This document shows, piece by piece, positions 30,898-63,040 of a stretch of DNA of 64,000 bases. Source of the stretch: Escherichia coli. Its GTDB lineage: Bacteria; Pseudomonadota; Gammaproteobacteria; Enterobacterales; Enterobacteriaceae. Both the position numbers and the translations under genes were made by a program. Position 1 is the first letter of the stretch. Each line of letters begins with the position of its first letter. The notes below the pieces were generated by a model. That model saw only the letters and a list, made by a program, of their open reading frames with translations, made no database searches and was not told the origin of the DNA. The stretch lies in the NCBI RefSeq assembly GCF_003018255.1, contig NZ_CP027440.1. The stretch is one strand, 5' to 3'.

Positions 30898-30933
30898 CCC
30901 TTCTTTTCGCGACTGGCATCGCCAGTCGCGTCT

Positions 30934-31759: not shown

Positions 31760-31788
31760 TGCAACATGATAATAAATACGCGTCTTTA

Positions 31789-31820
31789 ACCCCGAAGCCT
31801 GGCTTCGGGGTTTCTTTTTG
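31789..31820 (+). terminator. Rho-independent terminator after ygaM
   Basis: ACCCCGAAGCC-t-GGCTTCGGGGT followed by TTCTTTTTG. Confidence 0.7.
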
Positions 31821-59032: not shown

Positions 59033-60570
<1,538 letters not shown>

Positions 60571-60580
60571 AGGCTGAAAC

Positions 60581-61735
<1,155 letters not shown>

Positions 61736-61741
61736 TTAACA

Positions 61742-61806
61742 GCGGAGATCCGTTAAGGATCTCCGCGAGACTAATAAAATGCCTGATGCGCTACGCTCAT
61801 CAGGCA
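61742..61806 (+). repeat. Perfect 10-bp stem hairpin followed by a REP unit in the srlD-gutM spacer
   Basis: GCGGAGATCC-gttaa-GGATCTCCGC (61742-61766), then GCCTGATGCGCTACGCTCATCAGGC REP palindrome. Confidence 0.6.
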
Positions 61807-61840
61807 TACAGGACTTCCGCCACTACATTAAGGAAAAGTT

Positions 61841-62200
61841 ATGGTATCCGCACTCATCACCGTCGCCGTTATCGCCTGGTGTGCGCAACTGGCCTTAGGC
61901 GGTTGGCAAATTTCTCGTTTTAACCGTGCCTTCGACACACTATGCCAGCAAGGGCGGGTTGGCGTGGGCCGTTCCAGCGGGCGCTTTAAACCGCGGGTCG
62001 TGGTCGCCATCGCCCTGGACGATCAGCAACGCATCGTCGACACCTTGTTTATGAAAGGACTGACCGTCTTCGCCCGACCACAAAAAATTCCCGCAATTAC
62101 CGGTATGTATGCGGGTGATTTACAGCCCGATGTGATCTTTCCCCATGATCCACTATCACAGAATGCTCTATCATTGGCGCTTAAACTGAAACGTGGATAA
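61841..62200 (+). CDS. gutM: Glucitol operon activator GutM
   Basis: 119-aa ORF. Confidence 0.9.
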   Translation: MVSALITVAVIAWCAQLALGGWQISRFNRAFDTLCQQGRVGVGRSSGRFKPRVVVAIALDDQQRIVDTLFMKGLTVFARPQKIPAITGMYAGDLQPDVIFPHDPLSQNALSLALKLKRG

Positions 62201-62266
62201 TTTCGTTGTGAATGTTACTTGCTTGCGAAGTTATCATTTTGAAACCTAAATCAGGTAATCACGCCC

Positions 62267-63040
62267 ATGAAACCTCGTCAGCGTCAGGCCGCCATTCTGG
62301 AGTATCTGCAAAAGCAGGGTAAATGCTCGGTTGAAGAATTGGCGCAATACTTTGACACCACAGGCACAACCATTCGCAAAGATCTGGTCATTCTGGAACA
62401 TGCCGGAACCGTCATTCGTACTTATGGCGGAGTGGTGTTGAATAAAGAGGAATCCGATCCGCCAATCGATCATAAAACACTCATCAACACCCACAAGAAA
62501 GAGCTGATTGCAGAAGCTGCCGTTAGTTTTATCCATGATGGCGATTCGATCATTCTTGATGCTGGCAGTACCGTTTTGCAGATGGTCCCCCTGCTCTCGC
62601 GCTTTAATAACATCACAGTGATGACCAACAGCCTGCATATCGTCAATGCGCTATCCGAACTGGATAACGAACAAACTATCCTGATGCCAGGCGGAACATT
62701 TCGTAAAAAATCGGCCTCATTTCACGGGCAACTGGCAGAGAATGCCTTCGAGCATTTCACCTTCGATAAATTGTTTATGGGCACCGACGGCATCGATCTC
62801 AATGCGGGCGTAACCACGTTCAACGAGGTTTATACCGTCAGTAAGGCAATGTGCAATGCCGCGCGCGAAGTGATTTTGATGGCGGACTCATCAAAGTTTG
62901 GCCGTAAAAGCCCCAACGTAGTTTGCAGTCTTGAAAGCGTCGATAAGCTAATTACCGACGCAGGTATCGATCCAGCGTTTCGTCAGGCGCTGGAAAAGAA
63001 AGGGATCGACGTGATCATAACCGGAGAGAGCAATGAGTGA
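62267..63040 (+). CDS. srlR: DeoR-family glucitol operon repressor
   Basis: 257-aa ORF with N-terminal HTH and DeoR C-terminal sugar-binding domain. Confidence 0.93.

What the first reader, a model, noticed from the sequence alone, without database searches (positions are those of the whole stretch)
61742..61766. Perfect 10-bp GC-rich hairpin without a U-tract between srlD and gutM
GCGGAGATCC-gttaa-GGATCTCCGC sits 7 nt after the srlD stop and is followed by a REP unit, not a T-run. It is therefore more likely an mRNA 3' stabiliser or partial attenuator separating the structural genes from the regulators gutM-srlR than a full terminator.
Basis: inference. Interest (0 to 1): 0.2.

Follow-up and report, generated by a model that had tools for sequence, protein, structure and literature searches.

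The report
U-tract-less hairpin after srlD stop
A real, conserved RNA stem-loop sits just after the E. coli sorbitol dehydrogenase gene and, together with the REP repeat next to it, most likely protects the upstream message and dampens read-through into the regulator genes; this is an ordinary kind of bacterial operon punctuation.

Summary
GCGGAGATCC-GTTAA-GGATCTCCGC lies at 61742-61766, six bases after the srlD UGA. It has no T-run. A 12-nt A-rich spacer and a single REP unit (61779-61809) follow it.

The hairpin is single-copy and present in 5408 of 5426 complete E. coli genomes. It occurs only in Escherichia. Its stem varies much less than synonymous sites in srlD (2/20 against 47/125 variable sites, p=0.02). 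All three stem substitutions seen give G-U pairs in the + sense RNA only, which points to RNA-level constraint.

In 80 species of Enterobacterales the same srlD-gutM gap always holds a stable hairpin with unrelated sequence. This is a REP/BIME unit, a unique stem, or, in Serratia, Rahnella and Gilliamella, a canonical stem plus T-run.

Published Term-seq for K-12 (uninduced cells) maps the only 3' end in this gap 3 nt after the REP, not after this hairpin. That end has a sub-threshold intrinsic-terminator score and a significant Rho signal.

Best reading: the hairpin is not a terminator. It is the inner element of a two-hairpin exonuclease barrier and partial attenuator. Its specific contribution is unproven. 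Interest is low.

The parts
60956..61735 (+). srlD CDS (sorbitol-6-phosphate dehydrogenase), stop TGA at 61733-61735
   Evidence: ORF list. RefSeq annotation of an identical E. coli region.
61736..61741 (+). 6-nt spacer TTAACA between the stop codon and the stem
   Evidence: Sequence. Position 61738 is T/C polymorphic.
61742..61766 (+). The hairpin. Arms 61742-61751 and 61757-61766, loop GTTAA 61752-61756. Energy -19.4 kcal/mol as + sense RNA. Contains two GATC sites. The loop UAA (61754-61756) is in frame with srlD.
   Evidence: Single copy in 5408/5426 E. coli genomes. 100% of stem cells paired in 16 Escherichia sequences, and all 3 variable pairs go to G-U. RNAalifold predicts it independently.
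61767..61778 (+). A-rich spacer GAGACTAATAAA (not a U-tract); carries a 1-nt deletion in K-12-type strains
61779..61809 (+). Single REP unit (Z1-like palindromic unit), stem 61779-61807, about -17 kcal/mol
   Evidence: Inverted repeat. REP consensus with 2 mismatches. 40 or more places per genome. Energy.
61810..61810 (+). Position equivalent to the published K-12 Term-seq 3' end (MG1655 2828590), 3 nt after the REP stem
   Evidence: Adams et al. 2021, PMC7815308, supplementary files 1 and 3. Coordinates mapped through the MG1655 annotation.
61811..61840 (+). C-rich, G-poor spacer with the gutM Shine-Dalgarno AAGGA (61830-61834)
   Evidence: Sequence. GC skew is -0.16 to -0.18 over 61760-61880.
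61841..62200 (+). gutM CDS (first of the regulator genes gutM-srlR-gutQ)
61729..61734 (+). 5' side of a possible 6-bp clamp helix (GUUCUG, the end of srlD including the first two bases of the stop codon) that pairs with CAGGAC at 61809-61814 and encloses both hairpins
   Evidence: MFE fold and RNAalifold consensus. Prediction only; a translating ribosome would open it.

Best explanation
The hairpin is a + sense RNA stem-loop in the srlD 3' untranslated region. It is not a terminator in its own right. It is the inner (5') half of a two-hairpin module, with the REP as the outer half. This module punctuates the srlAEBD | gutM-srlR-gutQ boundary.

Proposed steps:
1. Transcription from the srl promoter crosses the gap.
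2. Some transcripts end further downstream, by Rho action in or beyond gutM/srlR or by endonuclease cuts.
3. 3'-to-5' exonucleases trim these transcripts back to the first stable structure they meet, which is the REP.
4. If the REP is breached, the stronger unique hairpin 12 nt upstream stops decay before it reaches the srlD stop codon.

The net effect would be a longer-lived, more abundant srlAEBD message than the regulator segment.

Shown: the structure, its single-copy status, sequence constraint on the stem, unrelated hairpins occupying this position in other genera, the absence of a U-tract, and a published Rho-sensitive 3' end at the REP.

Inferred: that the hairpin itself blocks exonucleases or contributes to attenuation.
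For: Structure: perfect 10-bp stem, -19.4 kcal/mol. It appears in the MFE fold with z = -5.6 and in the RNAalifold consensus.

Constraint:
- It is present once per genome in 5408/5426 E. coli.
- 86 of 88 metagenomic contigs have a fully paired stem. The two exceptions are low-coverage contigs with several 1-nt deletions.
- Among six Escherichia lineages, 2/20 stem sites vary, against 47/125 four-fold synonymous srlD sites and 2/5 loop sites. Fisher p = 0.02.
- All three variable pairs change to G-U or U-G, so the stem stays paired only as + sense RNA. Every variant is weaker as - strand RNA.

Same position in other genera:
- All 80 species loci carry a hairpin of -10.9 kcal/mol or stronger in this gap. 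It starts within 10 nt of the stop in 46 of them.
- The gap folds with median z = -3.5, against -1.5 for the gutM-srlR gap in the same loci.
- Serratia, Rahnella and Gilliamella have a terminator-like stem plus T-run at the same place.

Experiment (K-12): a 3' end lies 3 nt after the REP, coverage falls from 585 to 197 reads, the Rho score is 1.9 (flagged significant), and the intrinsic-terminator score is 1.5, below the cut-off of 3.

General precedent: Rho-dependent transcripts end just after stable stem-loops that lack U-tracts, and these stem-loops protect against PNPase and RNase II (Dar & Sorek 2018, PMC6061677). A REP can act both as a partial Rho-dependent terminator and as a stabiliser (bioRxiv 10.64898/2026.03.23.713779).
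Against: - No 3' end was curated at the hairpin in any of three Term-seq conditions. Its individual contribution is therefore untested.
- There are no compensatory double substitutions, only one-sided G-U changes. The evolutionary signal rests on three events and a p of about 0.02.
- The whole gap is more conserved than synonymous sites (7.5% against 18% pairwise), so some of the stem conservation may not be specific to the stem.
- The sequence is confined to Escherichia.
- All expression data come from uninduced cells.
- REP insertions cluster after genes for reasons unrelated to function, which weakens the cross-species argument for the REP-bearing loci.
Confidence: 0.5

Rival explanations
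1. Neutral relic. The palindrome is a leftover, for example the stem of an ancestral intrinsic terminator that lost its U-tract, or an insertion scar. It has no present function, and the REP does all the work.
For: The only mapped 3' end is at the REP. The hairpin is restricted to Escherichia. There is no compensatory covariation. More distant relatives have a true stem plus T-run at this site, so a decayed terminator is plausible.
Against: The stem varies about 5 times less than synonymous sites while the loop varies freely (p = 0.02). All stem changes preserve pairing. It is retained in 5408/5426 genomes. It is kept in a contig where the neighbouring spacer and REP were replaced (L097).
Confidence: 0.15
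2. Stop-codon-proximal translational brake. The stem begins 6 nt after the UGA, so a terminating ribosome must melt its 5' arm. This could slow termination or ribosome release and lower SrlD output, or trigger mRNA cleavage and trans-translation. That effect has been reported for REPs within about 15 nt of stop codons (Liang, Rudd & Deutscher 2015; recalled from memory and cited indirectly in PMC4513850).
For: The geometry. In 46/80 species the first hairpin starts within 10 nt of the srlD stop, and in 61/80 within 15 nt.
Against: There are no ribosome-profiling or tagging data for srlD. UGA-U is a strong termination context (general knowledge). Closeness to the stop is also what a 3'-end protector or terminator would show. 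A brake on the most downstream structural enzyme has no obvious rationale.
Confidence: 0.12
3. Leader element of a separate gutM-srlR-gutQ transcript. An internal start site in the 3' end of srlD would put the hairpin and REP in the gutM 5' UTR. There they could act as a premature-termination or processing site, or as a 5' stabilising stem.
For: Adams et al. list the 3' end under '5' UTR/upstream ORF' of gutM. Their inclusion rule implies a mapped TSS 21-200 nt upstream of it. There are weak promoter-like candidates at 61631 (TG-extended -10) and at 61753-61780.
Against: No TSS coordinate could be retrieved; two TSS data sets had no entry. The standard promoter scan finds nothing in 61650-61870. 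This reading also does not exclude the main explanation.
Confidence: 0.1
4. Leaky hairpin-only terminator or pause site. The stem alone, perhaps helped by NusA or NusG, makes RNA polymerase pause or release at low efficiency without a U-tract.
For: Strong GC-rich stem directly after a gene. Coverage drops across the gap.
Against: No T-run. No 3' end mapped at or just after the stem. The nearby 3' end has an intrinsic-terminator score of 1.5 and a Rho signal.
Confidence: 0.05
5. DNA-level site. The 25-bp perfect palindrome is an operator for a dimeric regulator (SrlR, GutM or another), or a Dam/SeqA-sensitive element. Its two GATC sites are 11 bp apart.
For: Perfect dyad symmetry and two GATC sites.
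Against: The natural variants break DNA symmetry but keep RNA pairing through G-U. One lineage loses a GATC (L010). SrlR and GutM are conserved across genera, but the palindrome is replaced there by unrelated hairpins. The half-site does not recur near the srl promoter or elsewhere in the window beyond chance.
Confidence: 0.04

Closest known systems
Protective 3' stem-loops of Rho-dependent transcripts (Dar & Sorek 2018, PMC6061677)
   Same: An energetically stable stem-loop just after a gene, not followed by U-rich sequence, with C-over-G sequence downstream. The published K-12 data flag this gap as Rho-sensitive.
   Different: Here the mapped steady-state 3' end sits at the adjacent REP, not at this stem. 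The element lies inside an operon rather than at its end.
REP/BIME intercistronic stabilisers and attenuators (malE-malF REP, Newbury et al. 1987; BIME attenuation, Espeli et al. 2001; REP325, bioRxiv 10.64898/2026.03.23.713779)
   Same: A U-tract-less GC-rich palindrome between a highly expressed upstream gene and downstream genes. A dual stabiliser and partial Rho-dependent terminator role has been proposed.
   Different: The hairpin is not a REP. It occurs once per genome, against 40 or more places for the neighbouring unit, and has no similarity to the REP consensus. It works, if at all, in tandem with a genuine REP.
Rho-independent (intrinsic) terminator
   Same: A GC-rich stem with a short loop immediately after a stop codon. 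Distant relatives have a canonical one at the same site.
   Different: No U-tract, no terminator call, and no 3' end mapped at the stem.
Intercistronic decay-barrier hairpins that set unequal expression within operons (e.g. Rhodobacter puf, E. coli pap; recalled from general knowledge)
   Same: A stem-loop between promoter-proximal structural genes and distal genes, proposed to give segmental differences in mRNA stability.
   Different: No half-life or processing data exist for the srl message. The resemblance rests on position and structure only.

Membership tests
Intrinsic (Rho-independent) terminator | GC-rich stem-loop | tested here: met
   10-bp perfect stem with 7 G-C pairs and a 5-nt loop.
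Intrinsic (Rho-independent) terminator | U-rich tract immediately 3' of the stem | tested here: not met
   The tail is GAGACTAATAAA. The scan finds no terminator-like site in 61650-61870 on either strand.
Intrinsic (Rho-independent) terminator | RNA 3' ends at or just after the stem | tested here: not met
   Published K-12 Term-seq has no curated 3' end at the hairpin. The only end in the gap is after the REP, with an intrinsic-terminator score of 1.5. Only uninduced conditions were sampled.
REP / BIME palindromic unit | Member of a dispersed, many-copy sequence family | tested here: not met
   The hairpin has exactly 1 place per genome in 5408 genomes. The adjacent unit 61779-61809 has 40 or more places per genome and matches the consensus with 2 mismatches.
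REP / BIME palindromic unit | Extragenic imperfect palindrome | tested here: met
   It is extragenic and palindromic, but these features are not specific to REPs.
3'-end protective stem-loop / intercistronic mRNA stabiliser | Stable stem-loop without a U-tract in the 3' UTR of the protected gene | tested here: met
   -19.4 kcal/mol, 6 nt after the stop.
3'-end protective stem-loop / intercistronic mRNA stabiliser | Steady-state 3' ends accumulate at its 3' base | tested here: not met
   Not seen in Adams et al. 2021. The REP 12 nt downstream would mask it.
3'-end protective stem-loop / intercistronic mRNA stabiliser | Removal shortens upstream mRNA half-life or lowers upstream gene expression | not testable with these tools
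   Needs a rifampicin chase or reporter assay with stem mutants.
3'-end protective stem-loop / intercistronic mRNA stabiliser | Selection on pairing rather than on sequence | tested here: inconclusive
   The stem is 100% paired, with 3 one-sided G-U changes and no double changes. Stem against synonymous-site variation gives p = 0.02. Unrelated hairpins sit at the same site in 80 species.
Any curated Rfam RNA family | Match at or above the gathering score | tested here: not met
   The only hit is NiCo-AnGGAG at 24.9 bits against a gathering score of 64.5.

The most novel reading that the evidence does not exclude
The srlD-gutM boundary may be under convergent selection across Enterobacterales for a stop-codon-proximal stem-loop. 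This stem-loop would couple the end of srlD translation to Rho-sensitive attenuation and so set the dose of the operon-encoded activator GutM and repressor SrlR relative to the structural genes. Escherichia would have evolved its own dedicated, non-REP hairpin for this, backed by a REP. In that case the hairpin would be a specific regulatory device of the gut operon's unusual autoregulatory circuit, not generic 3' protection.
Probability: 0.12. Interest if true: 0.4.

Novelty: new member of a known kind. Interest (0 to 1): 0.15.

Why it matters
In the gut/srl operon the activator (GutM) and the repressor (SrlR) lie downstream of the structural genes in the same transcription unit. How much transcription and message survives past srlD therefore sets the regulator dose. 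A two-hairpin barrier at this junction would be a simple, tunable control of that ratio. The finding that 80 species fill this gap with unrelated hairpins suggests the junction matters. Beyond this operon it is one more example of a well-known class, U-tract-less protective stem-loops and REP-associated attenuation. The general significance is small.

Tried and rejected
- Rfam scan of 61000-62400 at E up to 10: only a sub-threshold NiCo-AnGGAG hit. Rejected as chance.
- SECIS-like reading (UGA followed by a hairpin): no Rfam support. The loop and stem lack the SelB-binding features (from general knowledge), and an in-frame UAA lies in the loop. Rejected.
- Dispersed-repeat or MITE idea: the hairpin is single-copy. 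Rejected.
- Operator idea: the half-site GGATCTCCGC does not recur beyond chance and is absent from the srl promoter region. Natural variants break DNA symmetry. Rejected as unlikely.
- Terminator on the minus strand: no T-run on either side.
- Sigma-70 promoter in the gap: none at standard stringency and only weak candidates at relaxed stringency.
- Literature that led nowhere:
  - Yamada & Saier 1988 (PMID 3062173), Liang et al. 2015 (PMC4427526), Thomason et al. 2015 and Ju et al. 2019 are not held.
  - Dar & Sorek and UhpU supplements are not held.
  - SMRT-Cappable-seq and Cappable-seq supplements have no srl/gutM entries.
  - The RpoN gSELEX peak is at srlB/srlD, not at this gap.
  - Mentions of gutM and srlD in the REP325 and UhpU papers are incidental.
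- My first hairpin parsers merged or skipped some stems in multi-REP gaps. I therefore use only their robust outputs: presence of a stable hairpin, and z-scores.

Full report
**Observation.** The window's 3' end is the E. coli sorbitol operon. The genes are srlA 59051-59614, srlE 59611-60570, srlB 60581-60952, srlD 60956-61735, gutM 61841-62200, srlR 62267-63040, and gutQ from 63033. The names come from the RefSeq annotation of a 100% identical record.

The reported hairpin is exactly where stated. Its arms are 61742-61751 (GCGGAGATCC) and 61757-61766 (GGATCTCCGC), and its loop is GTTAA. Six bases (TTAACA) separate it from the srlD TGA. It is followed by GAGACTAATAAA and then by a second palindrome at 61779-61807.

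Neither strand has a T-run after the stem. The terminator scan finds nothing in 61650-61870.

Perfect stems of 10 bp or more with 3-8 nt loops are rare by chance: 0.45 +/- 0.8 per 64 kb in shuffles, against 10 hits at 6 loci in the real sequence. As RNA the stem is worth -19.4 kcal/mol. The 131-nt region folds with both hairpins at -52.4 kcal/mol, z = -5.6.

**The two palindromes are different things.** The downstream one matches the Z1-type REP consensus with two mismatches. It is found at 40 or more places in every E. coli genome, which is the reporting cap. The reported hairpin occurs exactly once per genome, in 5408 of 5426 complete genomes and never on plasmids.

One metagenomic contig (L097) keeps the hairpin but has a different spacer and a different REP unit. 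The two elements are separable modules.

**Variation within Escherichia.** Sixteen sequences (E. coli phylogroups, cryptic Escherichia lineages and E. whittamii) were aligned.
- In the hairpin helix, 7 of 10 pairs never vary. The other 3 vary on one side only, always to G-U or U-G. All cells are paired, and there are no compensatory double changes.
- K-12, O157 and most E. coli carry G-U at the outer pair. B2-like strains carry U-G at the inner pair. One cryptic lineage carries U-G at pair 8.
- These changes keep pairing only in the + sense RNA. Every variant is weaker as - strand RNA.
- In 88 metagenomic contigs fetched with an anchor in the end of srlD, four haplotypes account for 85. They are the K-12 type (36), the O139/B2 type (22), the window type (15) and the C3/O157 type (12). 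One further contig has a loop variant. Two low-coverage contigs carry several 1-nt deletions that are probably assembly errors.
- Among six Escherichia lineages, 47 of 125 four-fold synonymous srlD sites vary (pairwise 18%). In the loop 2 of 5 sites vary (21%). In the stem only 2 of 20 vary (3.3%). Fisher p = 0.02.

The stem is thus under constraint at the RNA level. The evidence is modest, because it rests on three substitution events and the whole gap is somewhat conserved (7.5% pairwise).

**Comparison across species.** A scan with SrlD returned 80 loci, each labelled with a different organism.
- The Escherichia hairpin sequence is confined to Escherichia (L009-L013).
- Every locus nevertheless carries at least one stable hairpin in the srlD-gutM gap (-10.9 kcal/mol or stronger, median about -23). 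It begins within 10 nt of the stop in 46 loci and within 15 nt in 61.
- Citrobacter, Salmonella, Klebsiella and Kosakonia have REP/BIME units there.
- Enterobacter, Lelliottia and their relatives have an unrelated unique stem (CCCTCTCCC...GGGAGAGGG).
- Serratia, Rahnella and Gilliamella have a canonical stem plus T-run that the terminator scan calls on the + strand.
- The gap folds far better than its shuffles (median z -3.5; 57 of 76 below -2). The neighbouring gutM-srlR gap in the same loci does not (median z -1.5; 15 of 76).

A stem-loop at this junction is therefore conserved in position while its sequence turns over. That points to a structural, transcript-level role rather than a protein-binding sequence. 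REP insertion bias could explain part of this pattern.

**Experimental data from the literature.** Adams et al. 2021 (PMC7815308) mapped RNA 3' ends in MG1655 in three conditions. Their curated table has a single 3' end in this gap, at 2828590(+), found in LB at OD 0.4. Using the MG1655 gene coordinates, this is window position 61810. That is 3 nt after the REP stem and 44 nt after the hairpin.

For that end, DirectRNA-seq coverage was 585 reads upstream and 197 downstream without bicyclomycin, and 309 and 199 with it. The Rho score is 1.9, flagged as a significant Rho termination region. The intrinsic-terminator score is 1.5, below the cut-off of 3. The strongest Rho region nearby is inside srlR, at 2829346, where reads fall from 697 to 76.

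No 3' end is listed at the hairpin. This fits the general picture of Dar & Sorek 2018 (PMC6061677): Rho-terminated transcripts are trimmed back to a stable, U-tract-less stem-loop, with rut-like C-rich sequence just downstream. It also fits the recent description of a REP as both a partial Rho-dependent terminator and a stabiliser. The sequence after the REP is mildly C-over-G.

**Interpretation.** The hairpin is not an intrinsic terminator. The most economical reading is that hairpin and REP form a tandem barrier. The REP defines the observed 3' end. The stronger, unique hairpin is a second line that would stop 3' exonucleases before they reach the srlD stop codon, and it may add to polymerase pausing or attenuation. 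I give this about 0.5.

The hairpin's own contribution is inferred, not shown.

**Rivals.**
- Functionless relic of an ancestral terminator (0.15). Stem conservation argues against it.
- Brake on translation termination, because the stem starts 6 nt after the UGA (0.12). This is by analogy with stop-proximal REPs (Liang et al. 2015, cited indirectly).
- Part of a gutM leader transcribed from an internal start site (0.10). The Adams et al. inclusion rule implies such a start site 21-200 nt upstream of the 3' end. I could not retrieve its coordinate, and only weak promoter-like candidates exist.
- Hairpin-only leaky terminator (0.05).
- DNA-level operator or GATC element (0.04). The G-U-type asymmetry of natural variants and the lack of conservation outside Escherichia, where SrlR and GutM are conserved, argue against it.

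**Novelty and score.** This particular hairpin does not appear in the literature I could search. Its kind is well known: a U-tract-less protective or attenuating stem-loop, here paired with a REP, between differentially expressed parts of an operon. I classify it as a new member of a known kind, with interest 0.15.

The most novel reading still open is convergent selection for a stop-proximal structure that tunes the dose of the operon-encoded activator and repressor. I give it a probability of about 0.12, and it would be of moderate interest if true.

Noticed in passing
window 59265-59288 (+), inside srlA (59051-59614): A terminator-like hairpin CGTGCATTGGCACG followed by TTTGTCTTTT lies within the srlA coding sequence. 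Adams et al. 2021 list an 'internal' Term-seq 3' end in srlA at MG1655 2826058, which maps to window 59277, at the base of this stem. It could be a premature 3' end early in the operon.
   Followed up: partly
L004 (E. coli XD35, NZ_CP089142.1) 1290-2510; equivalent to window 61752-61756: An IS5-like ISEc68 element is inserted in the TTAA of the hairpin loop, with TTAA duplicated. It separates the two arms by about 1.2 kb and splits srlD from gutM. This is a natural knock-out of the hairpin.
   Followed up: partly
window ~62566 (+), inside srlR: Published Rho termination region at MG1655 2829346 inside srlR (697 reads upstream, 76 downstream, Rho score 3.7; Adams et al. 2021 supplementary file 2). 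This suggests strong Rho-dependent polarity within the repressor gene in uninduced cells.
   Followed up: no
window 62174-62201 (+): A sigma-70 promoter-like site (TTGGCG-16-GATAAT, 9/12) lies at the very end of gutM, upstream of srlR. The gutM-srlR gap is AT-rich and unstructured. It may be an internal srlR promoter.
   Followed up: no
window ~61610-61789 (+): The inclusion rule of Adams et al. supplementary file 3 implies a mapped TSS 21-200 nt upstream of the REP 3' end, that is, in the end of srlD or in the gap. The best relaxed promoter-like candidates are a TG-extended -10 at 61631 and TTAAGG-16-TAAAAT at 61753-61780. This is unverified.
   Followed up: partly
window 61729-61734 with 61809-61814: A predicted 6-bp helix pairs the last srlD codon plus the first two bases of the stop codon (GUUCUG) with CAGGAC just after the REP, enclosing both hairpins. 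It is kept in all 16 Escherichia sequences, with one U-G change and one broken cell. The published 3' end at 61810 falls inside it.
   Followed up: partly
L097 5105-5260 (metagenome contig OLIF01000055.1): An Escherichia-like contig has the same hairpin (O139-type allele) but a longer, different spacer and a different REP unit (…GCGCTGCGC…) before gutM. This shows REP turnover at this site within the genus.
   Followed up: no
window 61733-61756: The srlD UGA is followed in frame, six codons later, by UAA in the hairpin loop (TGA TTA ACA GCG GAG ATC CGT TAA). This back-up stop is kept in K-12 and O139 alleles but shifted in lineages with the TTAAA loop.
   Followed up: no
window 7185-7211, 7435-7457, 19945-19972, 30908-30930, 31788-31812: Five other loci in the window have perfect stems of 10 bp or more with 3-8 nt loops. 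The stem at 31788-31812 (AACCCCGAAG…CTTCGGGGTT) is followed by TCTTTTTGCC and looks like an intrinsic terminator.
   Followed up: no
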